37,335 bases of DNA from Tenericutes bacterium HGW-Tenericutes-5 (GTDB taxonomy: Bacteria > Bacillota_I > Bacilli_A > Izemoplasmatales > Hujiaoplasmataceae): the NCBI GenBank assembly GCA_002839125.1, contig PGXI01000001.1:1-37335 (forward strand), read 5' to 3'. Within the stretch, counting starts at the first letter, position 1. The number at the start of each line of letters is the position of its first letter. Below the pieces are notes generated by a model that did not search any database, was not told the origin of the DNA, and saw nothing but the letters and a program-made list of their open reading frames with translations. The translations under genes and the position numbers were made by a program. Below are positions 9,890-30,073 of this stretch, piece by piece.

Positions 9890-9890
9890 A

Positions 9891-10220: not shown

Positions 10221-10241
10221 AATAATTCATCTCCTTAAAGT

Positions 10242-10269
10242 GTAATAAGCGACCAAGGTCGCTTATTAC
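10242..10269 (-). other. 13-bp-stem intercistronic hairpin without a U-tract
   Basis: GTAATAAGCGACC-AA-GGTCGCTTATTAC starts 3 nt after the DUF5320 stop and is followed by the SD of the next gene, not by a T-run. Confidence 0.6.
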
Positions 10270-10272
10270 TTA

Positions 10273-10488: not shown

Positions 10489-10504
10489 AATAACACCTCC
10501 ATTT

Positions 10505-10518
10505 TTGACATATGTCAA
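10505..10518 (-). promoter_or_regulatory. perfect 14-bp palindrome between the -10 and the SD; candidate operator
   Basis: TTGACATATGTCAA lies 13 nt downstream of the -10 hexamer of the promoter at 10532-10559. Confidence 0.45.
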
Positions 10519-10531
10519 TAACATCAACTTT

Positions 10532-10559
10532 ATTATACCACTATAAAAACAATTGTCAA
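10532..10559 (-). promoter_or_regulatory. consensus sigma70 promoter of the DUF5320 operon
   Basis: Minus strand: TTGACA (10554-10559, directly abutting the arcA stop), 16-nt spacer ending in TGG, TATAAT (10532-10537). Confidence 0.7.
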
Positions 10560-11786
10560 CTATTCTCTTTCAAAAGGCATAGACATACATCTAGGTCCGC
10601 CCCTACCTCTAGATAATTCACTAGATGGCATTTTATGAATCTTGATTCCATTTTGCTCCAAAAGACTATTAGTAATATGATTTCTTTCATAAACAATTAC
10701 TTCACCCGGTCTAATTACAATTGTATTAGCTCCATCGTTCCACTGTTCTCTATCACTAGCCACAGGATCATCTTCACCACCACATGGAATAAGTGTAATA
10801 TTTCTTCCTAAATATTTAGATAAGATATCATCTAATTTCCCTTCAATTGGCAAAACGTCAAGTTTTTCTTTATGCGTTTTTGATTTTGTAACTTCGTAGG
10901 CTTTAATAACATGTCTTAATTCTTGATGAATTAAGAATTTATCATAATCAACCTGCGTAAATACAGTATCTAAATGCATAAAAGCTCTACTCTTAGGGAT
11001 ATCAAAAGCTAAGACTATTTCAAAATCGGTTTTATTGTAATAGAATAAGTTTTTTGCTAATCTTTCAATTGCTGCTGGATGAGTTCTTTCAGAAACGCCG
11101 ACAGCCAATATCTTGTCGTTTAATACAAGAATATCTCCACCCTCTAATGTTGGTACCAGCTGACGATTATAGTAATGAGGAATATCTTTGTTTCCATAAA
11201 TCGGATGATATTTAAAGATATATTCTCCATAGATAGTTTCTCTTGATCTTGTTACTGAAAACATCTTTGAAATTGAAACTCCATTAGCAATAATTGAAAA
11301 TGGGTCTCTGGTAAAATATAAATTCGGCATTGGATCAGTAACGAACGGATAATCACGAATATAATCTGATAAAGTTCTTTTTGTGAAATTTGGAACTTCA
11401 TCTTTTCTAATTCCTGCCATCGTAGCACTTACCATTTTCTTTGTAATCTTCATGGACTTTAAATAATCGAAAATTAATAGTTTTAAAGTATCGCTTGTTA
11501 TTGAGGCTTCTTCAATGAATTGATTGATAAATTCATTTTTTACATCTTCAGATGTTTCTAAAGCTTCAGCTACCAAATCAACTAAATACAATACTTCAAC
11601 ACCATTTTTTCTAAATATATCTGCAAAAGCATCATGTTCCTTTTGCGCTAGATCTAACCAAGGGATATCATCAAACAATAGTTGGTTCAACCATTTTGGA
11701 GTTAGGTTTTCGAGTTCTCTTCCCGGTCTATGTAAAAGCACTTTCTTTAATTCTTTAATTTCTGATTTCACATTTAATAAACTCAT
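10560..11786 (-). CDS. arcA: arginine deiminase
   Basis: 408 aa with typical ArcA N-terminus (EIKELKKVLLHRPG.EL..LTP) and C-terminal catalytic Cys motif GGPRCMSMP. SD AGAGAGGA. Confidence 0.9.
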   Translation of the reverse strand: MSLLNVKSEIKELKKVLLHRPGRELENLTPKWLNQLLFDDIPWLDLAQKEHDAFADIFRKNGVEVLYLVDLVAEALETSEDVKNEFINQFIEEASITSDTLKLLIFDYLKSMKITKKMVSATMAGIRKDEVPNFTKRTLSDYIRDYPFVTDPMPNLYFTRDPFSIIANGVSISKMFSVTRSRETIYGEYIFKYHPIYGNKDIPHYYNRQLVPTLEGGDILVLNDKILAVGVSERTHPAAIERLAKNLFYYNKTDFEIVLAFDIPKSRAFMHLDTVFTQVDYDKFLIHQELRHVIKAYEVTKSKTHKEKLDVLPIEGKLDDILSKYLGRNITLIPCGGEDDPVASDREQWNDGANTIVIRPGEVIVYERNHITNSLLEQNGIKIHKMPSSELSRGRGGPRCMSMPFERE

Positions 11787-11799
11787 AAAAATCCTCTCT

Positions 11800-13182
11800 T
11801 TACTTGATTGGTTTAAATTCTGCAGTAAAATGCCTTAAGATAGGGGACTCATAAACGAATTCCAATCCTTTTAGTTTTGGCCCTCTTTTACTTACTTCAA
11901 TCAAACACTCAGCTACATAATTCAAGTGTTCTAACGTATATGTTCTACGTGGTATAGTCAGTCTTAAAAATTCTTTATCCGCTCTTAGATTTTCATGAGT
12001 GTCTGGATCTCTACCTAATAAAAGTGATCCGATTTCTACCGCTCTTATTCCGCCTTCAAGGTATAACTCGTTACAAATAACTTGGGCAGGAAATTGGTTA
12101 AAAGGAATTTGTGGACAGATTGCTCCACAATCAACAAATACCGCGTGTCCACCAGTCGGATACTGAATAGGAACTCCTCCAGCTCTTAATTTATCTCCTA
12201 AATATCTAATTTCATCAAGACGATATTGTAAATAATCTTCTTCTAAAGCTTCTTTTAAGCCAACAGCTAAAGCATCCATATCCCTTCCGGATAACCCACC
12301 ATATGTTGGGAACCCTTCCATCGGTATGACTCTAACCTGACAAGCTCTAAACATTTCTTCATTATCTTTTATCGCTATTAACCCACCGATATTAACAAGA
12401 CCATCTTTTTTACTACTCATTAAAAACAAGTCAGCTAAATCAAATTGCTCTCTCGCTATATCTTTAACAGATTTATTTTCATAACCTTTTTCTCTAAGTT
12501 TGATAAAATATGCGTTTTCAGCATATCTAGCCCCATCGATAACTACAGGTATGCCATTTTCTCTGGCAATCTTATTAACTTCACGCATATTCTCTAAAGA
12601 TACTGGTTGTCCGCCAGCGGAATTATTAGTAATAGTCATGATAATTGCGGCAATATTTTCTTTTTTCTTATCTGCGATTATCTCTTTTAATTTTAATAAA
12701 TCAAAATTACCTTTAAAAGGATAATCCAACTCCAGATCAAAACACTCTTTACAAACACAATCAATCGCTCTACCACCAGCTAATTCTACATGGGCTCTAG
12801 TTGTATCAAAATGAATATTTGATATAACATACATCCCTGGTCTTTTAATTAAGTTCGGTAAAGCAACTTGTTCAGCTCCCCTGCCTTGATGAGCCGGAAT
12901 TACATACTTATATCCTGTAATCTCTTTAACCGCCGCTTCTAGGCGATAAAAGCTTCTAGAACCAGCATATGCTTCATCACCCATCATCAATGCTCCCCAT
13001 TGAAAATGAGACATTGCTCCTGTTCCTGAATCAGTTAAAAGATCAATAAAAACATCTTCTGATTTTAATCTAAAAGGATTAAAACCCGCCTGTTCTAATT
13101 TCTTTTCTCTTTCTGCTTTTGAAATAAGTTTTATTGGTTCCACCATTTTGATTTTAAATGGGGGTAAAGAATAATTTTTCAT
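11800..13182 (-). CDS. tnaA: beta-eliminating lyase, tryptophanase-like (tryptophanase / tyrosine phenol-lyase family)
   Basis: [12 protein letters not shown] and the PLP-Lys motif [18 protein letters not shown] carries Asp at the substrate-specificity position where TPL has Thr (FTTTR). GFPTYGG resembles TnaA rather than TPL (GMPSYGG). Comparison is to remembered E. coli and C. freundii sequences. Confidence 0.7.
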
Positions 13183-13263: not shown

Positions 13264-13277
13264 TGCAAACTTGGGCG

Positions 13278-13311
13278 AAAAAAAAGATTAGAATCTTATC
13301 AATTCTAATCT
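13278..13311 (-). terminator. rho-independent terminator ending the photolyase operon
   Basis: Stem AGATTAGAAT / ATTCTAATCT with a 7-nt loop. It overlaps the Nudix stop codon and is followed on the minus strand by T7. Confidence 0.8.
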
Positions 13312-13721
13312 TTAAATATTATATCTCGATGTAATTTATAGATTTCTATCATGTGACCGATATTACCTTCTCCAGCAAACTTTTCGGTATCATAGAAATT
13401 CTCTTCGATATCAATCCAATGAAGTTTGTGAACTTCTTCAATCAATTCTACGTCTTCTTTAAGTTTTCCAATAAAAACAATCATTTTCATGTCAATCGGA
13501 TGCCAAACAAAATCCATAAACATTGATAGTAATATATCGTTTTTGGTTATTCCGGTCTCTTCAAATAATTCCCTATAAGCACTAGCTAAATAGTCTTCAC
13601 CGTTTTCAATTTTACCGCCAACAAGATTAAACTTACCAATATATGGATTTTTTGATCTATGACACATTAAAACTTTATCTTCATTCTTATTTAAAACTAA
13701 AATCAAGTTAAATAACTTCAT
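13305..13721 (-). CDS. Nudix hydrolase (MutT-like size)
   Basis: Nudix box GGKIENGEDYLASAYRELFEETG. 138 aa. Confidence 0.85.
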   Translation of the reverse strand: MKLFNLILVLNKNEDKVLMCHRSKNPYIGKFNLVGGKIENGEDYLASAYRELFEETGITKNDILLSMFMDFVWHPIDMKMIVFIGKLKEDVELIEEVHKLHWIDIEENFYDTEKFAGEGNIGHMIEIYKLHRDIIFKD

Positions 13722-13728
13722 CCAAAAA

Positions 13729-14124
13729 TTACCAAATCCAATGATAAATCAAATATGTTAATAAACTAATAGAAGTTGATAAGAAGGTTCCCCAAATTAA
13801 ATCCACGATAGTAACTGTGATTGGCCAATCTTTTAAAGTTGCTAAATTAGTTAAATCATATGTTGCATAAGTCATGAATCCAAAAACTGCACCAGTTAAA
13901 ACAACCTTACCTAAGTCTTTAGCTTCTATGCCTGATTTTAGGAAAAATACAAGCCCAACAATAAACAGTAAATAAAACACTAAAGCCGCAATAAAGTTAG
14001 GTCTTTCAGCCATCAAATGACCGATTTGAGCTTTATAAAACTTCGGAGCCACTAATCCTAACCAGATAGCGTCAATAGCTAAAAACACCACAAAAGCTAT
14101 CGCATACATTTTAATAAAATTCAT
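13729..14124 (-). CDS. DUF2177-family 4-TM membrane protein
   Basis: 131 aa with four hydrophobic helices. The pattern IDAIWLG...P.FY matches DUF2177 as I remember it. SD AAGGGG lies inside the photolyase 3' end, with a 2-nt gap. Confidence 0.6.
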   Translation of the reverse strand: MNFIKMYAIAFVVFLAIDAIWLGLVAPKFYKAQIGHLMAERPNFIAALVFYLLFIVGLVFFLKSGIEAKDLGKVVLTGAVFGFMTYATYDLTNLATLKDWPITVTIVDLIWGTFLSTSISLLTYLIYHWIW

Positions 14125-14126
14125 AA

Positions 14127-15362
14127 TTATTCCCCTTTTCTTATTTCATTCATTTTTACTACATAATCTTCAATATTAAACTTTCTTTTTAAGCCATTGT
14201 CATTCATATATCTTAACTTACCAAATATTGGTCTTTCAGTCCAAGCTCTGTCATGTTTTCCAAAACACCAAGCCACACCACAATACCCATTTGGAGTAAA
14301 CCCATCAATAAAGTAATAATTATTTAACTCAATCGCAATATCATATGCTTCTTCATAACTTCTAGACCATTCTATAATTTTCTTACACCAATACATTCTC
14401 ATATAAGAATGCATTCTACCTGTATAAACCATCTCAATCATGGCCGCGTTAAAATATGGATCATGAGTATTAAAATTAATATAATCTTCTTTAGAATAAA
14501 TATACTCTCTTTTATCCTTTAAGTGTTGATTCATTGATTTATATGCCCAGTCATATGTCATATATTGAAATTGATCATATGTAGGATTAAAGTAGACAAA
14601 GTTATATGCAAGTTCTCTTCTTACAATTAACTCTTCTAAAAAAGCATCCTTATTTTCAGTATTTACTTTAGCTAACCGATCAAAAATTGTCACTGGTGAT
14701 ATAAATCCATATTTTAAGTATGCACTAAGTAAAGAGGTGTAATTTAATGATGGATCATTATGTAAATGGTAATTATCTAATTTATTTTCAATAAAATTAT
14801 CTAAAATTCTTAGCGCTTCTTTTTCACCAATTGTTGTTGGCATATTATCAAGCACTGAAATTCGATATTCATTAAGTTTTGAATTAATCTTATTTCTAAT
14901 TGTTCTGGCTGAATATTCTTCTTTATCAGAAGCTACTGATACTGGAACAAAAACATTTGACTCAACGGTAAAAAGATTTATGTTATTTGTTAAGCATTTT
15001 TGCTTAATTTGTTCATATTGATTTATGTCGAAGCGCAAATAGGCTTTATCTACAAAAATTGAATTAAAACCTGCTAATAAATCATATAACTTATCGTTTC
15101 TTTTTACATATTTAACACTGTCAGAAAAAAGCTTTAAATTATCAACCAAATCAATAGTATTTTGTTCAAAAAATTCTATATTTCGAGGATTCTCTTCATA
15201 AGGTTCAACGACAACTATCTCTAGTTTTAATTGATAAAATTTTGCATGATTTATAGCTTCATAAAGAGAATAATTATTTCTTATCCTAAATGATTTGGTC
15301 ATAATATAAAGGCATTTTTTATTATCGTTATTAAATTCTAATATTTTAAGTATTCTACTCAT
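14127..15362 (-). CDS. phr: class II CPD deoxyribodipyrimidine photolyase
   Basis: Class II signature blocks: KEEYSARTIR, FLEELIVRRELAYNF, THDPYFNAA, GRMHSYMRMYWCKKIIEW, PNGYCGVAWCFGKHDRAWTERPIFGKLRYMN..GLKRKF. The start abuts the upstream stop (TAAATG). Confidence 0.88.
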   Translation of the reverse strand: MSRILKILEFNNDNKKCLYIMTKSFRIRNNYSLYEAINHAKFYQLKLEIVVVEPYEENPRNIEFFEQNTIDLVDNLKLFSDSVKYVKRNDKLYDLLAGFNSIFVDKAYLRFDINQYEQIKQKCLTNNINLFTVESNVFVPVSVASDKEEYSARTIRNKINSKLNEYRISVLDNMPTTIGEKEALRILDNFIENKLDNYHLHNDPSLNYTSLLSAYLKYGFISPVTIFDRLAKVNTENKDAFLEELIVRRELAYNFVYFNPTYDQFQYMTYDWAYKSMNQHLKDKREYIYSKEDYINFNTHDPYFNAAMIEMVYTGRMHSYMRMYWCKKIIEWSRSYEEAYDIAIELNNYYFIDGFTPNGYCGVAWCFGKHDRAWTERPIFGKLRYMNDNGLKRKFNIEDYVVKMNEIRKGE

Positions 15363-16148
15363 TTATTTCTTGGGAAACCAGGGAATAAATGCATTTGTTT
15401 TTTTTGCGTATTCATCCCAACCAGGGGCTTCCTTCATCTTTCTTTCTAACATAGGAACACCGCTAACAAATCTCAGTAAGTAAGTTATAACAATTGGGCT
15501 AATTATTGATAGGTACTTCCAGAAAGAATCTGTTGGCATTGCTAAAACAACAATGAACAAACCCCACCACATAACTGCTTCACCAAAATAATTAGGATGC
15601 CTTGTATATTTCCATAATCCAGTAGTCATTAATTTTTGCAATTTATTCTTATTAGCAATATGTTTTTTTAATTGATAATCTCCTACAACTTCAAAGAAGT
15701 AACCGAAAATCCAAACTAAAACACCAATAACAACTAATATCCAACTGAAACCACTATCAAGCCCTGGAGTAACATTAATCCAAAACACTCCCAAACCAAC
15801 AACAAACATAAATAATCCTTGAAGCATAAAAACTTGTAAGAAAGCACGAGGCACTACCCATTTACCCCAGTCCTCACGCCACTTTTTATATCTAAAATCT
15901 TCTTCAGCAAAAATGTTTCTTTTTAAAATATAATAGAAAAGTCTTAATCCCCATAAACTAACCAAAACATTAACAATAATTTTATCAATGCCATAATCAG
16001 CTTTTACAAAGAAGAGAATCCAAGCCGTCACTACAAACCCTAATCCCCAGCCGATATCCACAATGCTATTATTCTTAATAATTGTTGCGACTACAAAAAA
16101 GACTAAAAAATAGATAAATATAACTAAAGCTGCTAATTCGATTCCCAT
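15363..16148 (-). CDS. DUF1295-family polytopic membrane protein (steroid-5-alpha-reductase/ICMT-like)
   Basis: About 6-7 TM helices. The C-terminal motif [19 protein letters not shown] is typical of DUF1295. SD AAGGAGA. Confidence 0.75.
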
Positions 16149-16160
16149 ATTTATTTCTCC

Positions 16161-17924
16161 TTATTTTTTTATATATCCAATCGCAACAGATCCCTTACCG
16201 CTATGAATAGCAGTTGCACTGGATACTTCTGATATATATTCCGGTTCTCTACCGATAATTTCAGTGAAAAGGACTTTATATTCATCTAATAGTTCTTGAT
16301 TTAAACAATGGATTAAAGCATATCTATCAATACCTTTGGTTTCCAAATCCTTTTTAACATGTTTAACTATTTTTTTTGTAATTCCCTTTTGTGATAAAGC
16401 AAATCCAAAAGCAGCTCCTTTACCTAATTCATCAATTGACATTATCGGTCTAATTCCAAAGAACATACCTATTTTACCAACTGCTTTAGGTAATCTTCCG
16501 CTCATCATTGCATACTTAAATGTTTCTAGACAAACTAAGATTTCCGATTTTGCTTTTTCTTCATTTAAAACTTTTTCTATTTCATCAATATTCTTTCCAT
16601 TTTTAAGCATTTCAACTGCTTTATTAACTAAAAGACCTTGAGCCACTGAATTTGTCAAAGTGTCTACAATTCTTATGTTTTTTCCCTTAGCTACTAACTG
16701 ATCGACCTCTTTTTTAATAACATTAAATGTTGCGCTTAAATTACTAGAAACAGCTACAACCAAGATATTCTTATAATTCAACAATAATTTTGAAAATAAA
16801 TCATTGATATATTTAATTGTTGGAGTTGCAGTTGTCGGATATTCTAGACTATTTTCAATCAAATCAAAAAGAATCTCATTATTCAAAGTAATTTTATCAA
16901 AATAAGTAATCCCTTCGATATTAACATTTAAAGGAATTACTACAACATTGTTTTCTTTTAAATAATTTTGATCAATATCGGCAATTGAGTCAGTAACAAT
17001 TACAGTATCACTTTCGGAATACTTCATATTGATATCACCAATCATGTCATCAACTTTTTGACTGATTACTTTACCGAATTTCCTTAATTCTTGGAATACT
17101 AATTCAGGTTGATTCGTATGAATATGGATCCTAAACATCTTAGCTCCCATAACGACAATCAAACTGTCTCCATAAGGTTTTAATGTTTCTTGGATAATTT
17201 CCTCTTTTTGATTACTATATTCAACTAAACCTTCTGTACAATATCTAAAATTAATTTCCTCATGAAAATCATGAGTATTTTCAATTTCTAGTTCTTCGTA
17301 TGCCATCTCTTCAATTTGTTCTTTATTGAAATAACTGTTAATACCCTTTAAGAATAAAACAAATCCCATTGCCCCACTATCCACGACATTATTCTTCTTT
17401 AATATCGCTAACTGTTCTTTAGTTTTCTCTAAAGCTTGCTCTGCTATAGTATAAGCAACCAAAAAGAAATCTTTGATATTTTTTGCGGCTGATAGAGTTT
17501 CTTTTAACCCTTTAGCCCATTCTTTAATTACGGTAATCATGGTTCCTTCCACAGGATTACTTAAAGATGAATATGTATGTTCTACACTCTCAAGAGCCAT
17601 ATCGGCAAACTCATCCAAACTCACTAATTCTTTACCTTTAGAGGCTGTTCTCAAACCATTAACAAACTGAGCAAAAATAACTCCACTATTCCCTCTAGCT
17701 CCAATAAGCGCTGAATCACTGATTGAATCTAAGGTAGTTTGAAAAGACTCTTGAGGTTTTGATTCTCTCGAGATTGTTTGCATAGTATAAACTAAATTAT
17801 TACCCGTATCACCATCAGGAACGGGAAAAACATTGATATCATTAAGTTTCTTTCGTTTCTTAACAACAAAAGTAGTCCCGTAGTTAAACATTTGATATAA
17901 ATCATGACCAGTTAGATATTCCAT
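16161..17924 (-). CDS. DAK2/DhaL (FakA-like N-terminal + middle domains) fused to a DegV (FakB-like) fatty-acid-binding domain
   Basis: N-terminus: FPVPDGDTGNN (DhaL/DAK2). Middle: FRYCTEGLV...GDSLIVVMG...RIHIHTNQP (FakA/YloV middle domain). C-terminal roughly 280 aa: VIVTDSIADI...VVIPLNV...YFD, ATPT, AVSSNLSATF, DTLTNSVAQG, MSGRLPK, IHSGKGSVAIGY (DegV). The start is moved to ATG 17924, 6 nt after SD GAGGTG. Confidence 0.75.
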   Translation of the reverse strand: MEYLTGHDLYQMFNYGTTFVVKKRKKLNDINVFPVPDGDTGNNLVYTMQTISRESKPQESFQTTLDSISDSALIGARGNSGVIFAQFVNGLRTASKGKELVSLDEFADMALESVEHTYSSLSNPVEGTMITVIKEWAKGLKETLSAAKNIKDFFLVAYTIAEQALEKTKEQLAILKKNNVVDSGAMGFVLFLKGINSYFNKEQIEEMAYEELEIENTHDFHEEINFRYCTEGLVEYSNQKEEIIQETLKPYGDSLIVVMGAKMFRIHIHTNQPELVFQELRKFGKVISQKVDDMIGDINMKYSESDTVIVTDSIADIDQNYLKENNVVVIPLNVNIEGITYFDKITLNNEILFDLIENSLEYPTTATPTIKYINDLFSKLLLNYKNILVVAVSSNLSATFNVIKKEVDQLVAKGKNIRIVDTLTNSVAQGLLVNKAVEMLKNGKNIDEIEKVLNEEKAKSEILVCLETFKYAMMSGRLPKAVGKIGMFFGIRPIMSIDELGKGAAFGFALSQKGITKKIVKHVKKDLETKGIDRYALIHCLNQELLDEYKVLFTEIIGREPEYISEVSSATAIHSGKGSVAIGYIKK

Positions 17925-17959
17925 TATTATGCACCTCAATAGTTTTAATTTATGGACAT

Positions 17960-17968
17960 ATTTTATCA
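17960..17968 (-). promoter_or_regulatory. candidate extended -10 (TGATAAAAT) for the Fak-photolyase operon
   Basis: Minus-strand TGATAAAAT lies about 35 nt upstream of ATG 17924 and downstream of the terminator at 18005-18038. The -35 is weak. Confidence 0.3.
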
Positions 17969-18004
17969 CAGAATGACTTACTATAAAATGATTAAGCATT
18001 TATT

Positions 18005-18038
18005 TTTAAAAAAATATCAAGCAAATTTTGCTTGATAT
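18005..18038 (-). terminator. rho-independent terminator of the padR-HAAS bicistron
   Basis: Hairpin ATATCAAGCAAA-T-TTTGCTTGATAT lies 5 nt after the stop and is followed on the minus strand by T7. Confidence 0.75.
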
Positions 18039-18042
18039 TAAT

Positions 18043-19029
18043 CTATTTTAAATGCTTAATTTTCTTGAAATACAAGCTAATTAAATCAATAATATTAGCT
18101 ACTATTATAATCCCAACTATTGAGGATTTAAATATATTAATGAAATTTTCAACTTGATTATAAGTAAAACTTAGTTCTGTAGAAATTCTAGTAATAAAAT
18201 CTACACTTATTAAATCTCCGGTTAAGAACACAACAGCAACAACTACACTAAATATCTTCGAGATAACATACATAATCAATAAGTTATAGTTCCATTGTGC
18301 ATATTTTATTTTGAATGCATATACTATAGCTTCAACAAATAATGATACTCCAAATATTAAAACAAATAATCTTGTATACTCTAGATTGAAAATACTTTCT
18401 TCAACAACCCATTCGCCGCCTACTTCAAACCAACCTAAATAAAGGTTGCTATAATATAAAATATATAACCATATACTTCCAAAGATTATTGTAACTACAA
18501 GACCTGCAATAGAACCACTTCTTGATATTGAAAGATTGGTCTTTTTTGGCACTTCAGGCAAGTCTTCAACTTTCCAATCATCTTTCTTTTCTCCATATCT
18601 ATCAATCGCAATAAATATTAGAGTAACAATCGCAAATCCGCTAAGCAAAGAACTAAATGCATTACCTATAGTTTCGAAGAAAACTTCAAAAATAGTTCCA
18701 AAAACCATATTTGACTCAATATTTTGCAGCGATTCAATCAGACCAAAAACAATCCCAATAGCTCCTAAAATAATCAATACAATCTTCAAAGTATAAAGAT
18801 AATCTCCCATCCATATAGGTGAAATCAGTCCTCTATAATTCCGATAGCTATTAGCAATTTGTCTTGGTGAACCCAATGAATAAAGCGCTCTTTTTACTTC
18901 TTCTTCATTAGATTCATCTTCAACCATTTCAAGAATATTGGCTCTTAATTCATTACCAACATCTTCTCTTTCTTCTTCTTTAAGTCTTCTTGTTACATCA
19001 TAAATATACTTTTCAATTAATTTACTCAT
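18043..19029 (-). CDS. HAAS (DUF1700)-domain membrane protein, about 6 TM; partner of PadR
   Basis: The N-terminus MSKLIEKYIYDVTRRLKEEEREDVGNELRANILEMVED...LGSPRQIANSY matches the DUF1700/HAAS pattern and is followed by six hydrophobic helices. The ATG at 19029 overlaps the padR stop (ATGAGTAA), with SD AGGTGA 5 nt upstream. Confidence 0.7.
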   Translation of the reverse strand: MSKLIEKYIYDVTRRLKEEEREDVGNELRANILEMVEDESNEEEVKRALYSLGSPRQIANSYRNYRGLISPIWMGDYLYTLKIVLIILGAIGIVFGLIESLQNIESNMVFGTIFEVFFETIGNAFSSLLSGFAIVTLIFIAIDRYGEKKDDWKVEDLPEVPKKTNLSISRSGSIAGLVVTIIFGSIWLYILYYSNLYLGWFEVGGEWVVEESIFNLEYTRLFVLIFGVSLFVEAIVYAFKIKYAQWNYNLLIMYVISKIFSVVVAVVFLTGDLISVDFITRISTELSFTYNQVENFINIFKSSIVGIIIVANIIDLISLYFKKIKHLK

Positions 19030-19360
19030 TAGTTTCACCTACAATTTTCATAATTTCTTCGTTAATTTTTTTCCATTCATTTAATAACTCATCTAATACT
19101 TCTTTTCCCAAATCACTAATTTCATAGTATTTTCTAGGTCTTGCCGAAGATGTATCCCACTCACTTTCTAATAAACCCTGACTTTCTAGTCTTCTCATTA
19201 AAGGATATAAGGTCCCCGCTTCTATCGATAGGTCTTTATCAATTAACTTCTCTAATAAAGAGTAACCATATTCTTTATTGCTTAACTGACTTAAAACCAT
19301 CATTATTTGTGTGCCTCTTCTGAGTTCGACCTTTAACGACTCAATGTCAACTTTACTCAT
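19022..19360 (-). CDS. PadR-family transcriptional regulator
   Basis: 112 aa winged HTH: YGYSLLEKL....IEAGTLYPLMRRLESQGLLESEW......RKYYEISDLGK. SD GAGGTG. Confidence 0.88.
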   Translation of the reverse strand: MSKVDIESLKVELRRGTQIMMVLSQLSNKEYGYSLLEKLIDKDLSIEAGTLYPLMRRLESQGLLESEWDTSSARPRKYYEISDLGKEVLDELLNEWKKINEEIMKIVGETNE

Positions 19361-19377
19361 TTTACCACCTCGAATAT

Positions 19378-19407
19378 ATTATACTGTATGTCATACTATA
19401 TTGTCAA
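19378..19407 (-). promoter_or_regulatory. consensus sigma70 promoter of padR-HAAS
   Basis: Minus strand: TTGACA (19402-19407), 18-nt spacer, TATAAT (19378-19383). The -35 is centred in the 15-bp palindrome TATATTGTCAATATA (19397-19411). GTATG-N-CATAC (19386-19396) lies in the spacer. Confidence 0.7.
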
Positions 19408-19453
19408 TATAAAATTATTAATTTTTTTAAATTTTTATTCTTGTGCAAACGAG

Positions 19454-19481
19454 TTGACAAATTGTCATAATATGATATATT
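19454..19481 (+). promoter_or_regulatory. near-consensus sigma70 promoter of the heliorhodopsin gene
   Basis: TTGACA (19454-19459), 16-nt spacer, TATATT (19476-19481). The -35 overlaps the perfect 13-bp palindrome TGACAAATTGTCA (19455-19467). SD AAAGGAGA lies 8 nt before the ATG. Confidence 0.65.
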
Positions 19482-19513
19482 TAAATTAGAAAATAAATAA
19501 AGGAGATATAACA

Positions 19514-20305
19514 ATGGAAAAAACAAGTTTTCAAAGCTTAAGAAAGTTTAATTTAATTATGGGCGCTATACATTTTGTACAGGGCATACTAATGATTATT
19601 TTATCCTCAACAGTAATTCAAACAATTTCCGAATTCAAACCTACTATTACCCAAATATTTTTAAGATTTGACACCACTACTCAATCACTAGTGGTTGATA
19701 TGAAAAATCTATTTGATTTACCTTTCGGTATCATGGTAGCTTTATTCTTACTACTATCAGCTGCTGCTCATGCTATTATTTCTTTACCTAAAAAGACGAA
19801 TGCCATTTACAACGCCGACCTTGAAAAAGGTATTAATCGTTTCAGATGGTATGAATACGCGCTAAGTTCATCAATAATGATCGTTTTGATTTCCACTCTA
19901 TTTGGAATCTATGACATCGGATCATTAGTTTTAATCTTTATCGTTAACGCCAGCATGAACCTATTTGGTCTATTGATGGAACAAGTTAACTCTGGAAGAG
20001 AAAAGAAAGATATTAAATGGGGAGCTTTTATCTTCGGTTCAATCGCTGGACTAGCTCCTTGGATTGTAATTATCCTTTACATGGTTGGTAATGGCAATTA
20101 CGAAATGGTTCCATGGTTTGTTTGGGCGATCGTAGGTACATACTTTGTAGCTTTCAATACTTTCCCAATCAATATGATTCTTCAGTACAAAGGGATTGGA
20201 AAATGGAAAAACTATCTTTATGGTGAAAGAGTATATATTACTTTAAGTCTAGTAGCTAAAACTCTTCTTGCTTGGTTAGTTCTATTTGGAGCCATGCAAC
20301 CATAA
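19514..20305 (+). CDS. heliorhodopsin (retinal-binding 7-TM protein with inverted topology)
   Basis: Block-wise near identity to heliorhodopsin 48C12 as remembered: RFRWYEYALSSSIMIVL (counterion Glu114), FIVNASMNLFG, IAGLAPWIVIILY, LQYKGIGKWKNYLYGERVYITLSLVAKTLLAW (Schiff-base Lys249, codon 20258-20260). His20 and His86 sit at the conserved His positions. Confidence 0.9.
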   Translation: MEKTSFQSLRKFNLIMGAIHFVQGILMIILSSTVIQTISEFKPTITQIFLRFDTTTQSLVVDMKNLFDLPFGIMVALFLLLSAAAHAIISLPKKTNAIYNADLEKGINRFRWYEYALSSSIMIVLISTLFGIYDIGSLVLIFIVNASMNLFGLLMEQVNSGREKKDIKWGAFIFGSIAGLAPWIVIILYMVGNGNYEMVPWFVWAIVGTYFVAFNTFPINMILQYKGIGKWKNYLYGERVYITLSLVAKTLLAWLVLFGAMQP

Positions 20306-20324
20306 AATCTTATTTTTAAAAATA

Positions 20325-20366
20325 AAAAGCATATATATCCTGAAAATGGATTATATGCTTTTTTTA
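20325..20366. terminator. bidirectional terminator shared by the heliorhodopsin gene and the convergent Nudix gene
   Basis: AAAAAGCATATATATCC / GGATTATATGCTTTTTTT (one bulge), 7-nt loop, with A-run and T-run on both flanks. Confidence 0.7.
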
Positions 20367-20893
20367 TTATTTTTGTAATATTCAAGAATTTTAATATCTC
20401 TAGTCACAATAAATTTTGTAATATAAATATTTTCATATTTACTTCCGATTAAGTTATCAAAACTATTTTTCATTGTTTCTAAAGCTTTGTCTATATCCAT
20501 CCAAAGTAGGGTTCCACCTTCTTCTTTTTCCTTTTCAGTTAAGTTGAGAAAATTGTTTTGTTTACTACATTCACCGATAAACACTTTGCTAATCTGTTTG
20601 AAATTACTTTGTGATTTATGTTCTTCAATATAACCTATTTCTCTAACACTACTTAAAATGCAGCCGGTTTCTTCTTTTACTTCTCTAATGAAAGCTTCTT
20701 TAAATGACTCTCCATTTTCAACACCGCCACCTGGTAATTTAAACTCATTTTTATTAACTTTATTGAAAATGGCAATTTTATTTTCCTTATTATAGACTAT
20801 TCCTCTAGATGCATAGCGAATAATCGGATTGTTAAAAGGTATATTTTCATAACCAATATCAGAATCTTTTATTATAGCGATTAAATTATCCAT
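20351..20893 (-). CDS. Nudix hydrolase
   Basis: Nudix box GGGVENGESFKEAFIREVKEETG. 180 aa. Confidence 0.85.
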   Translation of the reverse strand: MDNLIAIIKDSDIGYENIPFNNPIIRYASRGIVYNKENKIAIFNKVNKNEFKLPGGGVENGESFKEAFIREVKEETGCILSSVREIGYIEEHKSQSNFKQISKVFIGECSKQNNFLNLTEKEKEEGGTLLWMDIDKALETMKNSFDNLIGSKYENIYITKFIVTRDIKILEYYKNNKKSI

Positions 20894-21024: not shown

Positions 21025-21810
21025 ATGGATGTATTGTTTGCGTTTTTACTAACTTTATTTGCTGGACTAGCAACAGGTATCGGAAGTATATTCGCCTTTA
21101 ACAAGAAAATTAAAAAAGAAACATTATTGTCATTTGCTCTAGGATTAAGTGCTGGAGTAATGATATACGTTTCTTTTGTTGAAATCTTTCCAAAGGCTCT
21201 TGAATCACTAAGCCAAATATATGCGACAGAAACAGCTTATTTGTTTACTACACTTTCTTTCTTCTTTGGAATCGCTTTAATAGCCTTTATTGATTATATA
21301 ATTCCAGAAAAATCAAATCCCCATGAACTTCATGATGAATTAGATGAAAAAGGAAAAAAGGACAGTTTAATGAGATTGGGAATGTTTTCTGCTATAGCTA
21401 TAGCAGTTCATAACTTTCCTGAAGGTTTAGCTACTTTTATTGGAGCACTAGAAGATCCAGCACTCGGTATCAGCATCGCAATAGCTATCGCTATTCATAA
21501 TATTCCTGAAGGAATTGCAGTAGCTGTACCAATATTTCATGCTACAAACTCAAAAAAGAAGGCCGTCGGTTTGACTTTGCTTTCCGGTTTAGCTGAACCA
21601 TTAGGCGCTGTTGTCGGCTTTGTTCTACTTAGATCGATATTTACTGATGCAACTTTCGGGTTTTTATTTGCTGCTGTAGCTGGAATCATGGTTTACATAT
21701 CTCTAGATGAACTGTTACCGTCAGCCGAAAAATATGGAAAGCATCATTTATCTATTACGGGTCTTATACTTGGAATGATTATCATGGCTGTATCACTAAT
21801 ATTGTTTTAG
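21025..21810 (+). CDS. zupT: ZIP-family zinc transporter ZupT
   Basis: HNFPEGLA and HNIPEGIAVA metal-binding motifs, about 8 TM, 261 aa. SD AGGAGAA. Confidence 0.88.
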   Translation: MDVLFAFLLTLFAGLATGIGSIFAFNKKIKKETLLSFALGLSAGVMIYVSFVEIFPKALESLSQIYATETAYLFTTLSFFFGIALIAFIDYIIPEKSNPHELHDELDEKGKKDSLMRLGMFSAIAIAVHNFPEGLATFIGALEDPALGISIAIAIAIHNIPEGIAVAVPIFHATNSKKKAVGLTLLSGLAEPLGAVVGFVLLRSIFTDATFGFLFAAVAGIMVYISLDELLPSAEKYGKHHLSITGLILGMIIMAVSLILF

Positions 21811-28024: not shown

Positions 28025-29986
28025 TTATAAATTTTTCTTCAATTCAAATATTAAATCTCGAATTCGAGCAGCTTGTTCAAAATCTAATTCCTTTGCATAA
28101 ACCATCATTTGTCTTTCTAACATTTCAATATTCTTTTCAATTTCTTTTTTACTCAACTTATCAAAATCATAAGAATCTTGATTAGCTTCAGTTTTAATTG
28201 ATATTGAATCCGGAATATTTTTAAGAATTGTTTTTGGAGTAATCAAGTTCACTTTATTATATTCTTCCTGGATTGATCTTCTTCTATTAGTTTCATAGAT
28301 TGCTTTTTCCATTGATTGCGTGATACGAGTCGCATACATTATGACGTGACCGTTAACATTTCTCGCAGCCCGACCAATTGTTTGGATTAATGATTTCTCA
28401 CTTCTTAAGAATCCTTCTTTATCAGCGTCCAAAATTGCAATCAAAGAAACTTCAGGTAAATCTAAACCTTCACGTAAAAGATTGATACCGACTAAAATAT
28501 CGAAATCACCCAAACGCAACTTTCTTATTATTTCCATTCTTTCAAGAGATTTAACCTTCGAATGTAAATAACCCACTTTATATCCCAGGGATTTTAAATG
28601 GTTTGTTAAATCCTCGCTCATTTTGATTGTTAAGGTTGTAATTAGAACTCTTTCTTTTTGGTTGATTGTTTTATTTATTTCAATTAATAAGTCATCGATT
28701 TGGTTCATTGACTCTCTTACTTCAACAATCGGATCAACAAGTCCAGTCGGTCTAATAATCTGTTCAATTACATACTTACTTCTTTCAAGCTCATAATCAC
28801 CAGGCGTCGCAGACACATAGATGACTTGATTTATCTTTTCATTGAACTCATCAAAATTAAGTGGTCTGTTATCCATAGCGCTTGGTAATCTAAACCCATA
28901 ATCAACAAGAGTTTGTTTTCTTGATCTATCACCATTAAACATACCTCTTACTTGAGGTAAAGTAACATGAGACTCATCAACAATCAATAAAAAGTCTTTC
29001 GGGAAAAAGTCTATAAGAGTTGATGGTGTCTCACCTTCTCCTCTTAAAGCTAAATGTCGGGAGTAGTTTTCTACTCCAGCCACGGTTCCCATTTCCCTTA
29101 GCATTTCTAAATCATACATTGTTCTTTGTTCTATTCTTTCAGCTTCTAAAAGCTTATTATTATCCTTGAAAAATTTAATTCTTTCTATAAGTTCTTCCTT
29201 GATTCTTCCTAAAGCTTCTTCTAATTTATCGCTATCCGTTAAGAAGTGAGACGCTGGGAATAAAGATAACATTTCATAGTCTTTATAAATTTCTCCAGAA
29301 ACAATATTAAATTCTCTAATTCTTTTTACTTCATCAAAATCAAATTCGATTCTTATTCCTTTAGTTTTATTGTATGGCGGCAATATTTCAACTACATCAC
29401 CTCTCACTCTAAAACTTCCTCTGACAAAATCAATATCATTTCGAACATAAAGAATATCAATCAAACGATTTAACAAGGCTTCTCGAGAAATTTGTTCAGA
29501 TTTTCTTATCGTTACCATTCCGGCTTTATAAACTTCAGGATCACCGATACCATAGATACAAGATACACTGGCAACGATTATAACATCTCTTCTTTCTAAT
29601 AAAGATGAAGTAGCCGCATGCCTAAGCTCATCAATTTCGTCATTGATTGAAGCATCCTTTTCAATATAAATATCCGCTCCGGGAACATAAGCTTCCGGTT
29701 GATAATAGTCATAATAAGAAATAAAATACTCAACGCGATTTTCTGGAAATAAGGCTTTTAATTCCGAATAAAGCTGTCCCGCTAAGGTTTTATTATGAGC
29801 AAGTACAAGCGTGGGACGATTCACTTCCTGAATAACATTAGCTACAGTATAAGTTTTACCTGTACCAGTAGCCCCCAACAATACTTGTTCTTTTATTCCA
29901 TTATTTAAATTGTCAATTAATTGCTCGATTGCTTTGGGTTGATCCCCCATCGGCCTATAATCTGACTTTAAAATAAATTTATCCAT
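28025..29986 (-). CDS. uvrB: excinuclease ABC subunit B
   Basis: Canonical UvrB throughout: [10 protein letters not shown], Walker [13 protein letters not shown], beta-hairpin [11 protein letters not shown]-terminal UVR domain [12 protein letters not shown]. The start is taken as ATG 29986 ([10 protein letters not shown]...), 5 nt after GGTGA. Confidence 0.95.
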
Positions 29987-30073
29987 TTTAATCACCGGTA
30001 TTAGTATATCATATAAATTAAATCAACTGGTTATTTATTGATTAAATTGATAGAATAGTAATAGGTGAAATTA

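What the first reader, a model, noticed from the sequence alone, without database searches (positions are those of the whole stretch)
19514..20305. Heliorhodopsin gene, monocistronic, with all key retinal-pocket residues intact
The 263-aa product aligns by eye block-for-block with the founding heliorhodopsin 48C12, recalled from memory. RFRWYEYALSSSIMIVL carries Glu114 at the counterion position. GERVYITLSLVAKTLLAW carries Lys249 (codon 20258-20260) at the Schiff-base position. His20 and His86 sit at the two conserved His positions. The gene has its own near-consensus promoter (19454-19481) and a bidirectional terminator (20325-20366), so it is expressed alone. The physiological role of heliorhodopsins is still largely unresolved, so each new genomic context is informative. 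No retinal or carotenoid biosynthesis gene (blh, crtEBIY) is visible in the 37 kb, so the chromophore source is open. Heliorhodopsins are reported to be restricted to monoderms, which fits the Firmicute-like gene content here.
Basis: partly seen in the sequence, partly recalled or inferred. Interest (0 to 1): 0.8.

Follow-up and report, generated by a model that had tools for sequence, protein, structure and literature searches.

The report
Canonical heliorhodopsin gene, already-known kind
This is a textbook, intact heliorhodopsin (a light-sensing retinal membrane protein) from an uncultured wall-less Izemoplasmatales bacterium; it sits back-to-back with a lipid-handling and DNA-photolyase operon, a pairing the literature already describes, so it is real but ordinary.

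Summary
ORF 19514-20305 (+) encodes a 263-aa protein that matches Pfam Heliorhodopsin PF18761 (326 bits, cutoff 26.7) and NCBIfam HeR (304 bits, cutoff 100) and gives no type-1 rhodopsin hit. An AlphaFold model superposes on solved heliorhodopsins (HeRs) at TM 0.81-0.91, against about 0.55 for type-1 rhodopsins. H20, H86, E114 and K249 align to 48C12 H23, H80, E107 and K241. Charge distribution predicts a cytoplasmic N-terminus. The gene has its own promoter-like site and a bidirectional terminator hairpin.

It is not new. An identical protein sits in a public Izemoplasmatales MAG, and 90%-identical ones are already named "heliorhodopsin HeR".

Upstream, on the other strand, lie a PadR-HAAS regulator pair and then an operon: Dak2-DegV fusion, DUF1295, class II CPD photolyase, DUF2177, NUDIX. 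These four families are the most recurrent HeR neighbours in 80 related loci, in different arrangements across orders. Chazan 2021 (DegV/DUF2177/DUF1295) and Shim 2022 (class II photolyase) already published these links. Lack of blh/crt genes is also typical of HeR loci.

Most likely function: a non-pumping light sensor that modulates these photoprotection and lipid proteins. Interest is low (0.25).

The parts
19454..19481 (+). HeR promoter-like site: TTGACA, 16-nt spacer, TATATT, with an extended -10 TG
   Evidence: 11 of 12 matches, TG present. The extended -10 TGATATATT is conserved upstream of HeR in L001-L005, L007, L008, L009 and L072.
19500..19505 (+). Ribosome-binding site AAGGAG, 8 nt before the ATG
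   Evidence: Read directly from the sequence.
19514..20305 (+). Heliorhodopsin coding sequence, 263 aa
   Evidence: PF18761 scores 326 bits and NF038020 304 bits. Foldseek TM-scores to 6is6 and 6su3 are 0.83-0.91. dN/dS is 0.01-0.04.
19853..19855 (+). Codon for Glu114, the Schiff-base counterion position (48C12 E107), in TM3
20258..20260 (+). Codon for Lys249, the retinal Schiff-base lysine (48C12 K241), in TM7; part of the S245-x3-K249 motif
20324..20370 (.). Bidirectional intrinsic-terminator hairpin shared by HeR (+) and the convergent NUDIX gene (-)
   Evidence: z about -4.1 on both strands, and 0 of 200 shuffles fold as well.
19378..19407 (-). Divergent promoter of padR (TTGACA-18-TATAAT, 12 of 12), with a GTATGtCATAC palindrome in its spacer
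   Evidence: The palindrome is conserved in all six PadR-containing loci, with one mismatch in L005.
19022..19360 (-). PadR-family winged-helix transcription factor
   Evidence: PF03551, E 2.5e-17.
18043..19038 (-). Multi-TM protein with an N-terminal HAAS domain, the partner of PadR
   Evidence: PF22564, residues 9-62. The dyad concept comes from PMC11237479.
18013..18039 (-). Terminator-like perfect hairpin followed by a T-run, ending the padR-HAAS unit
   Evidence: -22.3 kcal/mol, z -6.05. The same hairpin occurs in L001-L003, and a different terminator-like hairpin occupies this position in L009.
17960..17987 (-). Promoter-like site of the Dak2-DegV operon (TTTATA-16-TAAAAT with TG), inside a conserved non-coding block
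   Evidence: The block AAATAAATGCnnAATCATTTTA ... TGATAAAAT is conserved in L001-L005, L007 and L072.
16161..17924 (-). Dak2 + FakA-middle + DegV fusion (fatty-acid-kinase-like). The likely true start is the ATG at 17924 after a GAGGTG ribosome-binding site; the mechanical ORF runs up to 17999.
15363..16148 (-). DUF1295 membrane protein (steroid-reductase/ICMT-like)
   Evidence: E 1.5e-63.
14127..15362 (-). Class II CPD photolyase homolog, 411 aa, with a shortened interdomain region
   Evidence: TIGR00591 gives E 2.5e-104 but the score (350) is below the cutoff (550). 2xry gives E 2e-69.
13729..14124 (-). DUF2177 small membrane protein
   Evidence: E 4.9e-45.
13305..13721 (-). NUDIX hydrolase, last gene of the operon
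13277..13313 (-). Terminator-like hairpin plus T-run that ends the operon
   Evidence: z -3.6.

Best explanation
The gene encodes a canonical heliorhodopsin (HeR): a seven-helix membrane protein with its N-terminus in the cytoplasm. All-trans-retinal would bind covalently at Lys249, with Glu114 as counterion and His20/His86 lining the cytoplasmic polar cavity. It is transcribed on its own from an extended -10 promoter.

It most likely works as a slow-cycling light sensor that moves no ions. Its long-lived photo-intermediate would change the cytoplasmic or membrane-facing surface and so modulate partner proteins by direct contact. The most probable partners are the products of the neighbouring divergent operon, in two groups:
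- the Dak2-DegV fusion, DUF1295 and DUF2177 trio (membrane and lipid handling);
- the class II CPD photolyase (light-driven DNA repair).

Shown here: family membership, fold, key residues, predicted topology, purifying selection, transcription signals, and the conserved gene linkage. Inferred: retinal binding, absence of transport, the identity of the partner, and the direction of the effect.
For: Identity:
- PF18761 scores 326 bits and NF038020 304 bits.
- PDB HeRs match at E 1e-49 to 1e-55.
- The AlphaFold model has pLDDT 85.9 with seven helices plus the HeR-typical beta-hairpin at 44-68.
- Foldseek gives TM 0.81-0.91 to 6is6, 7u55 and 6su3, against about 0.55 for type-1 rhodopsins.

Residues:
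- Nineteen structurally important 48C12 residues are identical here: N16, H23, Q26, S76, H80, Y92, N101, R104, W105, E107, Y108, S111, E149, Q216, Y226, E230, S237, K241 and W246 (residue list from Kovalev et al.; mapping).
- The only changes are Q213 to M221, which that paper calls a frequent variant, and S242 to T250.

Topology: 10 Lys/Arg lie in the predicted cytoplasmic loops against 3 outside, and six more sit at the cytoplasmic helix ends.

Selection: there are zero amino-acid differences from L001 at dS 0.41, and dN/dS is 0.012-0.042 against six relatives. This is the lowest value in the locus against L001 and second lowest against L002 and L004.

Linkage:
- Among 80 HeR loci the top recurrent neighbours are Dak2-DegV (12 loci), DUF2177 (12), DUF1295 (11) and class II photolyase (9).
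- The arrangements differ between lineages: divergent in Izemoplasmatales; same-strand HeR>DUF2177>Dak2-DegV>DUF1295 in Facklamia L045; DUF2177>HeR with an 8-bp gap in Erysipelothrix L049; HeR>Phr2 overlapping in L034 and L075.

Literature:
- Chazan et al. found the same trio to be the most HeR-specific neighbourhood.
- Shim et al. showed that a Firmicute HeR binds and enhances a class II CPD photolyase.
- Kim et al. list photolyase and DUF2177 among ten HeR operon groups.
Against: - No experiment exists on this protein or on any Izemoplasmatales HeR.
- No retinal or carotenoid pathway is visible in the window, so holoprotein formation depends on an unknown or external chromophore source.
- HeR is not co-transcribed with the candidate partners here. 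It is divergent and separated from them by the padR-HAAS unit.
- The photolyase is the least constrained operon gene (dN/dS 0.13-0.17). It scores below the TIGR00591 cutoff and has Phe at the medial Trp of the electron-transfer triad. It is absent from the equivalent operon of Izemoplasma sp. B36 (L009), so it may be an accessory rather than the core partner.
- The biochemical role of DUF2177 and DUF1295 is unknown.
Confidence: 0.65

Rival explanations
1. Transcriptional photosensing. HeR passes its light signal within the membrane to the multi-TM HAAS protein. That protein then releases or reconfigures PadR, switching transcription of padR-HAAS and/or the downstream photoprotection operon.
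For: - PadR and a HAAS-domain multi-TM protein lie directly between HeR and the Dak2-DegV operon.
- They share the 153-bp divergent promoter region with HeR.
- The HAAS-PadR dyad has been proposed as an alternative two-component system that responds to membrane signals (PMC11237479).
- A conserved palindrome, GTATGtCATAC, sits in the padR promoter spacer.
- Bulzu et al. argue that HeRs are sensory and linked to signal-transduction genes.
Against: - The PadR-HAAS pair accompanies HeR only in L001-L005 and L009.
- Closely related loci (L006, L007, L027, L072) and all other orders lack it, yet they keep the link between HeR and Dak2-DegV, DUF1295 and DUF2177.
- The padR-HAAS unit ends in a strong terminator-like hairpin, and the operon has its own conserved promoter block, which is also present where PadR is absent.
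- No shared operator was found at the HeR promoter. The palindrome over its -35 is confined to L001-L003.
Confidence: 0.1
2. Energy or antenna role. HeR recruits an external xanthophyll at its lateral fenestration and acts in light harvesting or ion transport rather than in sensing.
For: - The fenestration motif described by Kornilov et al. (48C12 F162, C166, G169, F206, N207, A210) is present here as F172, S176, G179, F214, N215, P218.
- Some viral HeRs transport protons (abstract of PMC12873467).
Against: - According to that preprint the motif occurs in about 91% of HeRs, so it does not single out this protein.
- Kovalev et al. describe the extracellular half of HeRs as hydrophobic and the Schiff-base proton as not released to the bulk.
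- This protein carries the canonical sensor-type residue set.
- The antenna idea rests on docking in a preprint.
- The gene context is photoprotection and lipid handling, not energy metabolism.
Confidence: 0.08
3. Chromophore-less relic. Without a retinal supply the opsin is never functional, and the gene is a drifting horizontally transferred remnant.
For: - No blh, crt or carotenoid-cleavage genes occur in the 37-kb window.
- The host looks like a fermentative anaerobe, with desulfoferrodoxin, arginine deiminase and Fe-S proteins.
Against: - The gene is under extreme purifying selection: zero amino-acid changes at dS 0.41 and dN/dS of 0.04 or less.
- All pocket residues are invariant across 40 homologs.
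- Promoter, ribosome-binding site and terminator are conserved.
- A photolyase nearby also implies exposure to light.
- Lack of blh is general for HeR-only genomes.
Confidence: 0.02

Closest known systems
Heliorhodopsin 48C12 (PDB 6su3/6uh3) and TaHeR (PDB 6is6), the structural archetypes of Pfam PF18761 / NCBIfam NF038020
   Same: - The fold matches (TM 0.81-0.91, about 42% identity).
- The Schiff-base Lys, Glu counterion, His pair, S-x3-K motif, cytoplasmic polar-cavity residues, beta-hairpin AB loop and predicted inverted topology are all shared.
- Met at the 48C12 Q213 position, as in TaHeR.
   Different: - The AB loop is a few residues longer.
- S242 is Thr250 here.
- Pro218 occupies the 48C12 A210 position (Pro as in Cv06).
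- The host is a wall-less Mollicutes-type anaerobe rather than an actinobacterium or archaeon.
- No spectroscopy exists for this clade.
TfHeR-TfPHR pair of Trichococcus flocculiformis (Shim et al. 2022, PMC9769723): a HeR that binds and enhances a class II CPD photolyase
   Same: A Firmicute-type HeR sits within a few kb of a class II CPD photolyase. In relatives L034 and L075 the photolyase directly follows HeR, as in an operon.
   Different: - Here the photolyase is about 4 kb away on the other strand, inside a different transcription unit.
- It is about 50-70 aa shorter than solved class II enzymes and than the L034/L075 homologs.
- It has Phe at the W360 triad position.
- The interaction is untested.
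- Identity between this HeR and TfHeR was not measured.
HeR-DegV-DUF2177-DUF1295 neighbourhood (Chazan et al. 2021, bioRxiv 10.1101/2021.02.16.431466)
   Same: All three families, with DegV as a Dak2-DegV fusion, lie within 6 kb of HeR. The same set recurs in Izemoplasmatales, Lactobacillales, Clostridia and Erysipelotrichales loci.
   Different: In this lineage a class II photolyase is inserted between DUF1295 and DUF2177, and a PadR-HAAS pair lies between HeR and the operon. The combination merges two published themes, but the parts themselves are not new.
Type-1 microbial rhodopsins (bacteriorhodopsin, proteorhodopsin, xanthorhodopsin; Pfam PF01036)
   Same: Seven-TM retinal-protein architecture with a lysine in helix 7. 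Weak structural similarity (TM about 0.55).
   Different: - No sequence-profile match.
- Predicted opposite membrane orientation.
- Glu, Ser and His replace the Asp/Asp counterion complex.
- 9-14% identity.

Membership tests
Heliorhodopsin (Pfam PF18761 / NCBIfam NF038020 HeR) | Full-length match to the family profile above the curated cutoff | tested here: met
   PF18761 scores 326.2 bits against a cutoff of 26.7, covering profile positions 1-242 of 242. The NF038020 equivalog scores 303.9 bits against a cutoff of 100.
Heliorhodopsin (Pfam PF18761 / NCBIfam NF038020 HeR) | Not a type-1 rhodopsin (control) | tested here: met
   No Bac_rhodopsin or other rhodopsin family is reported even at E<=10. 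Type-1 structures match only at TM about 0.5-0.6 and 9-14% identity.
Heliorhodopsin (Pfam PF18761 / NCBIfam NF038020 HeR) | Seven-TM fold that superposes on solved heliorhodopsins, including the extracellular AB beta-hairpin | tested here: met
   The AlphaFold model has pLDDT 85.9 and pTM 0.83, seven helices, and strands at 44-53 and 58-68. Foldseek top 10 hits are all HeRs, at E 9e-18 to 6e-14 and TM 0.81-0.91.
Heliorhodopsin (Pfam PF18761 / NCBIfam NF038020 HeR) | Schiff-base lysine in TM7 within an S-x3-K motif | tested here: met
   S245 and K249 align to 48C12 S237 and K241. They lie in helix 234-261 and are invariant in 40 homologs.
Heliorhodopsin (Pfam PF18761 / NCBIfam NF038020 HeR) | Single Glu counterion in TM3, stabilised by Ser residues | tested here: met
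   E114 aligns to E107, S82 to S76 and S118 to S111. E114 lies in helix 109-129.
Heliorhodopsin (Pfam PF18761 / NCBIfam NF038020 HeR) | His pair and polar cytoplasmic cavity (H23, H80, N16, N101, Y92, Y108, R104, E230, E149) | tested here: met
   H20, H86, N13, N108, Y99, Y115, R111, E238 and E156 are all present, and all are invariant in alignment A1.
Heliorhodopsin (Pfam PF18761 / NCBIfam NF038020 HeR) | Inverted topology (N-terminus cytoplasmic) | tested here: met
   Positive-inside count on the model's helices: 10 K+R in the N-terminus and the BC, DE and FG loops, against 3 in the AB, CD and EF loops and the C-terminus. R10, K11, R109, R111, K226 and R239 sit at the cytoplasmic helix ends. 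This is a computational prediction only.
Heliorhodopsin (Pfam PF18761 / NCBIfam NF038020 HeR) | Binds all-trans-retinal, has a slow photocycle and shows no ion transport | not testable with these tools
   This requires expression with retinal, followed by spectroscopy and electrophysiology.
Heliorhodopsin (Pfam PF18761 / NCBIfam NF038020 HeR) | Host is a monoderm | tested here: met
   An identical protein is found in an Izemoplasmatales MAG (L001), and 75-95% relatives occur in Izemoplasmatales, including the complete genome of Izemoplasma sp. B36. The lineage is Mollicutes/Mycoplasmatota within Bacillati.
HeR-photolyase regulatory pair (TfHeR type) | Class II CPD photolyase encoded in the same operon as HeR | tested here: not met
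   A class II photolyase homolog is present. However, it is on the opposite strand, in a separate unit about 4 kb away. Same-strand adjacency is seen only in relatives L034 and L075.
HeR-photolyase regulatory pair (TfHeR type) | Physical binding of HeR to the photolyase and light-dependent enhancement of repair | not testable with these tools
   This requires ITC or pull-down experiments and photorepair assays, as in PMC9769723.
HeR-DegV-DUF2177-DUF1295 neighbourhood (Chazan et al.) | All three families encoded close to the HeR gene | tested here: met
   DegV (as a Dak2-DegV fusion) lies at 16161-17924, DUF1295 at 15363-16148 and DUF2177 at 13729-14124, all within 6 kb of HeR. They recur in 11-12 of 80 related loci across at least four orders.
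HAAS-PadR dyad (PMC11237479) | A standalone PadR-like wHTH gene adjacent to a protein with an N-terminal HAAS domain fused to TM segments | tested here: met
   PF03551 PadR occupies 19022-19360 and overlaps by 17 bp the gene for a 331-aa protein with PF22564 HAAS at residues 9-62 followed by hydrophobic segments. Any functional coupling to HeR was not tested.

The most novel reading that the evidence does not exclude
HeR, the PadR-HAAS dyad and the operon Dak2-DegV / DUF1295 / photolyase / DUF2177 / NUDIX form a single light-response unit. HeR would be the photoreceptor, acting either through the membrane HAAS protein on PadR-controlled transcription or by direct contact with DUF2177 and Dak2-DegV. 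The lipid-handling trio would carry out a light-dependent lipid or chromophore-processing reaction that explains how blh-less HeR organisms cope with light, or obtain their chromophore. This would give HeRs a defined output pathway in Firmicute-type bacteria.
Probability: 0.12. Interest if true: 0.7.

Novelty: already known. Interest (0 to 1): 0.25.

Why it matters
As a gene call it matters little. The protein is a canonical member of a family described in 2018, with solved structures and a dedicated NCBI naming model. An identical or near-identical sequence is already public.

Its modest value is as a clean, well-delimited example of the two strongest published HeR gene associations sitting side by side in one locus: the DegV/DUF2177/DUF1295 trio and a class II photolyase. 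A related complete genome (Izemoplasma sp. B36) is available. That makes this clade a reasonable place to test experimentally what HeRs do and where HeR-only, blh-less anaerobes get their retinal.

Tried and rejected
1. One seven-gene minus-strand operon from padR to NUDIX. Rejected: a strong terminator-like hairpin lies at 18039-18013, and a conserved promoter block lies downstream of it, also present in loci without PadR. There are two units.

2. The 13-bp palindrome TGACAAaTTGTCA over the HeR -35 as a conserved operator. Rejected: it is present only in L001-L003 and absent in L004, L005 and L009.

3. The half-site of the 18013-18039 palindrome as a recurring operator. Rejected: with up to 2 mismatches, matches in the window are at chance level, 18 against 13 +/- 3.3 expected.

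4. The downstream NUDIX gene (20351-20893) and ZupT (21025-21810) as conserved HeR partners, the latter tempting because zinc binding by HeRs has been reported. Rejected: they are syntenic only in the closest relatives, L001-L003.

5. Structured RNAs in the window: no Rfam hit at gathering thresholds.

6. Carotenoid or retinal genes: none among all ORFs of 80 aa or more.

7. HeR homologs in 'diderm' MAGs as a new exception to the monoderm rule: the Sphaerochaeta UBA6084 case is already published. The others were not verified.

8. The photolyase as a degenerate pseudo-enzyme. Not supported as such: E301, Y345, M379, W381, W388, N403 and W421 are kept, and W305R is shared with the full-length HeR-linked homologs. 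Only W360F and the short linker are lineage-specific.
Full report
**Observation**

The ORF at 19514-20305 on the + strand is real, starts with ATG and encodes 263 aa. A script confirms H20, H86, E114 and K249, and codon 20258-20260 is AAA.

- A promoter-like site, TTGACA-16-TATATT with an upstream TG, lies at 19454-19481 and matches 11 of 12 positions.
- An AAGGAG ribosome-binding site lies 8 nt before the ATG.
- A hairpin at 20324-20363, flanked by an A-run and a T-run, follows the stop codon. It folds significantly better than shuffles on both strands, at -17.7 and -15.9 kcal/mol, z about -4.1, with 0 of 200 shuffles as good.
- The pattern-based terminator scanner did not report it, probably because the stem has a bulge.
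- The downstream gene is a convergent NUDIX hydrolase whose last codons lie inside the hairpin.

The description 'monocistronic, own promoter, bidirectional terminator' therefore fits the sequence.

**Identity**

The family assignment is about as firm as an in-silico assignment can be.
- Pfam Heliorhodopsin PF18761 matches end to end at 326 bits (cutoff 26.7).
- The NCBIfam equivalog 'heliorhodopsin HeR' scores 304 bits (cutoff 100).
- All six PDB hits are heliorhodopsins, at E 1e-49 to 1e-55.
- An AlphaFold2 model built on 40 homologs has mean pLDDT 85.9 and pTM 0.83. It shows seven helices plus the two-stranded AB hairpin typical of HeRs.
- Foldseek against the PDB returns only heliorhodopsins in the top ten, at TM 0.81-0.91 and 42% identity. 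Type-1 rhodopsins then follow at TM about 0.55 and E>=5e-4.

**Key residues**

The HMMER alignment to 48C12, combined with the residue list of Kovalev et al. (bioRxiv 10.1101/767665), gives the mappings below. The left residue of each pair is in the window protein and the right residue is in 48C12.

| Group | Window = 48C12 |
|---|---|
| Schiff-base and counterion support | S82=S76, S118=S111, S245=S237 |
| Polar cytoplasmic cavity and nearby | N13=N16, Q23=Q26, Y99=Y92, N108=N101, R111=R104, W112=W105, Y115=Y108, E156=E149, Q224=Q216, Y234=Y226, E238=E230, W254=W246 |
| Differences | M221 at Q213 (a frequent variant according to that paper; TaHeR also has Met here), T250 at S242 |

K249 lies in helix 234-261 and E114 in helix 109-129 of the model. 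All of these positions are invariant in the 40-sequence alignment.

The lateral 'fenestration' motif proposed by Kornilov et al. (bioRxiv 10.1101/2025.11.27.691015) is also present, as F172, S176, G179, F214, N215 and P218. The authors report that motif in 91% of HeRs, so it is not distinctive.

**Topology and selection**

With the model's helix boundaries, the N-terminus and the BC, DE and FG loops carry 10 Lys/Arg, while the opposite side carries 3. Six further Lys/Arg sit at the cytoplasmic helix ends. This gives the inverted, N-in orientation expected of HeRs.

The gene is under very strong purifying selection. dN/dS is 0.012-0.042 against six relatives, and there is not a single amino-acid difference from locus L001 at dS 0.41. 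Among neighbouring genes compared the same way, HeR has the lowest value against L001 and the second lowest against L002 and L004. That argues strongly against a chromophore-less relic.

**Source organism and prior knowledge**

A scan of representative genomes finds three relevant relatives:
- a 100%-identical protein in an uncultured Candidatus Izemoplasmatales MAG (L001);
- a 99% match in 'Bacillales bacterium UBA2289' (L002);
- a 75% match in the complete genome of Candidatus Izemoplasma sp. B36 (L009).

In the large protein collection, 90%-identical proteins already carry the NCBI name 'heliorhodopsin HeR [Candidatus Izemoplasmatales bacterium]'. Izemoplasmatales are Mollicutes within Bacillati, so the monoderm rule holds. 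The window's other genes (desulfoferrodoxin, arginine deiminase, Fe-S/NifX-like proteins) indicate an anaerobic fermenter.

Upstream of HeR, on the minus strand, lies the following series.

| Coordinates | Gene product |
|---|---|
| 19022-19360 | PadR |
| 18043-19038 | Multi-TM protein with an N-terminal HAAS domain |
| 16161-17999 as a mechanical ORF | Dak2 + FakA-middle + DegV fusion |
| 15363-16148 | DUF1295 |
| 14127-15362 | Class II CPD photolyase homolog (TIGR00591 E 2.5e-104; M. mazei 2xry E 2e-69) |
| 13729-14124 | DUF2177 |
| 13305-13721 | NUDIX |

I first read this as one seven-gene operon but had to revise that.
- A perfect 12-bp-stem hairpin followed by a T-run sits between HAAS and the fusion gene (18039-18013; -22.3 kcal/mol, z -6.05).
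- Just downstream there is a promoter-like site with an extended -10 (17987-17960) inside a non-coding block. That block is conserved in L001-L005 and also in L007 and L072, which have no PadR-HAAS at this position.
- The likely true start of the fusion gene is the ATG at 17924, behind a GAGGTG ribosome-binding site. This gives 587 aa, as in relatives.
- The operon ends at a hairpin at 13313-13277.

The locus therefore has three units: HeR (+), padR-HAAS (-), and Dak2-DegV to NUDIX (-).

**Is the linkage real?**

I clustered all ORFs within 6 kb of HeR in the 80 related loci. The four most recurrent neighbour families are exactly these: Dak2-DegV (12 loci), DUF2177 (12), DUF1295 (11) and class II photolyase (9). 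The arrangement changes while the association persists.

| Loci | Lineage | Arrangement |
|---|---|---|
| L001-L007, L009, L027, L072 | Izemoplasmatales | Divergent from HeR |
| L045 | Facklamia | Same strand: HeR>DUF2177>Dak2-DegV>DUF1295 |
| L041 | a Clostridium MAG | Same strand |
| L049 | Erysipelothrix | DUF2177>HeR with an 8-bp gap |
| L034, L075 | Bacilli MAG (L034); MAG labelled Muribaculaceae (L075) | HeR>photolyase, overlapping |

PadR-HAAS accompanies HeR only in L001-L005 and L009. The downstream NUDIX gene and ZupT accompany it only in L001-L003. The core linked set is thus the lipid-type trio. The photolyase is a frequent addition, though it is absent from the B36 operon.

**This is already in the literature**

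- Chazan et al. (bioRxiv 10.1101/2021.02.16.431466) found DegV and DUF2177, often with DUF1295 and sometimes as Dak2-DegV fusions, to be the families most characteristic of HeR neighbourhoods in Firmicutes and Chloroflexi. They proposed a role in membrane-lipid remodelling. They also noted that blh is rare near HeRs and in HeR-only genomes.
- Shim et al. (PMC9769723) showed that a Trichococcus HeR binds and enhances a class II CPD photolyase from its operon.
- Kim et al. (PMC11109279) list photolyase and DUF2177 among ten HeR operon groups.
- The HAAS-PadR dyad was proposed as an alternative two-component system by PMC11237479.

The window's locus is a tidy combination of known themes, not a new one.

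**Mechanism**

- Shown: family, fold, residues, predicted topology, constraint, transcription signals and conserved linkage.
- Inferred: the protein binds retinal at K249 and behaves like characterised HeRs, with a slow photocycle and no net transport. It would act by light-dependent contact with partner proteins, most probably the trio and/or the photolyase.
- Confidence: I put this composite at 0.65. Family identity alone would be above 0.95.
- Rivals: signalling through HAAS-PadR to transcription (0.1; lineage-restricted, with a separate promoter); an antenna, energy or transport role (0.08); a non-functional relic (0.02; contradicted by the selection data).

**Side observations on the photolyase**

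The photolyase scores below the TIGR00591 cutoff (350 against 550). It is about 50-70 aa shorter than solved class II enzymes because the interdomain region is short. It is the least constrained gene of the operon, at dN/dS 0.13-0.17.

I aligned it to M. mazei 2xry, taking native numbering as chain numbering minus 18, an offset that fits all three triad tryptophans.
- It keeps E301, Y345, M379, W381, W388, N403 and W421.
- It has Arg at W305, as do all HeR-linked bacterial homologs.
- It has Phe at the medial triad Trp W360, only in the Izemoplasmatales group.
- Whether this matters in a reducing anaerobic cytoplasm is unknown. The native residue numbers and the roles assigned to these residues come from my own recall of the class II photolyase literature, not from a tool result.

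**Verdict**

The object is an already-known kind of gene with published context, so the interest score is 0.25. Its main use is as a clean test locus for HeR function in a clade that has a complete genome.

Noticed in passing
window 14127-15362 (-); L001-L005, L007, L027, L034, L075: The class II CPD photolyase homolog is unusual. It scores below the TIGR00591 cutoff, has a short interdomain region (411 aa against 454-498), and has the highest dN/dS in the operon. Phe replaces the medial electron-transfer Trp (M. mazei W360) in all Izemoplasmatales copies. The copies that directly follow HeR in L034 and L075 keep Trp there. Arg at W305 is shared by all copies.
   Followed up: partly
window 16161-17999 (-): This is a Dak2 + FakA-middle + full DegV (FakB-like) fusion rather than a canonical FakA/YloV; the TIGR03599 match stops at profile position 400 of 530. 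The mechanical ORF is over-extended by 25 codons. The likely start is the ATG at 17924 after a GAGGTG ribosome-binding site.
   Followed up: partly
window 17975-18005 (-); same block in L001-L005, L007, L072: A conserved non-coding block, AAATAAATGCnnAATCATTTTAyA, overlaps the -35 region of the Dak2-DegV operon promoter and contains the inverted repeat AAATG-N6-CATTT. It is present whether or not PadR-HAAS is adjacent, so it may be the operator of an unidentified regulator.
   Followed up: partly
window 19385-19395 (within padR promoter spacer 19378-19407, - strand): The palindrome GTATGtCATAC lies between the -35 and -10 of the perfect-consensus padR promoter. It is conserved in all six PadR-containing loci, with one mismatch in L005, and is a probable PadR autoregulation site.
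   Followed up: partly
window 19514-20305 vs L001/L002: HeR is among the slowest-evolving proteins of the neighbourhood. It has 0 amino-acid changes against L001 at dS 0.41, whereas flanking genes are 84-99% identical. DUF2177 and DUF1295 are almost as constrained (dN/dS about 0.01-0.02).
   Followed up: yes
L056 4829-6461; L057 9158-10795: Two HeR genes in tandem on the same strand, about 60 bp apart, in an Izemoplasmatales MAG and a Bacillota MAG. In L056, DUF2177 and DUF1295 lie a few kb away.
   Followed up: no
L035, L037, L038, L039, L042, L052, L071, L033, L075: HeR homologs at 60-74% identity lie on contigs of MAGs labelled as diderm lineages: Spirochaetales/Sphaerochaeta, Halobacteroidaceae/Halanaerobiaceae and Muribaculaceae. 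Sphaerochaeta UBA6084 (L039, a 229-kb contig) is the published exception. The others could be mis-binned contigs or further exceptions to the monoderm rule.
   Followed up: partly
window 21025-21810 (+): A ZupT zinc transporter (NF003243, 363 bits) lies one gene downstream of HeR. This is notable because zinc binding by HeRs has been reported, but the synteny holds only in L001-L003 plus one unrelated locus.
   Followed up: yes
window 402-13182 and 13305-20305: There is an ecological oddity. The gene content is that of a strict anaerobe (desulfoferrodoxin, NifX-like and MinD-type Fe-S proteins, arginine deiminase, beta-eliminating lyase), yet a photoreceptor, a photolyase and, further along at 28025-29995, UvrB lie alongside. 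This implies regular exposure to light.
   Followed up: no
window 867-2003, 2128-4323, 7657-8151, 35796-37118 (all -): Four sizeable ORFs (377, 730, 163 and 439 aa) have no significant Pfam family. The 730-aa and 377-aa ones sit next to a MacB-like FtsX/ABC pair at 4490-7583.
   Followed up: no
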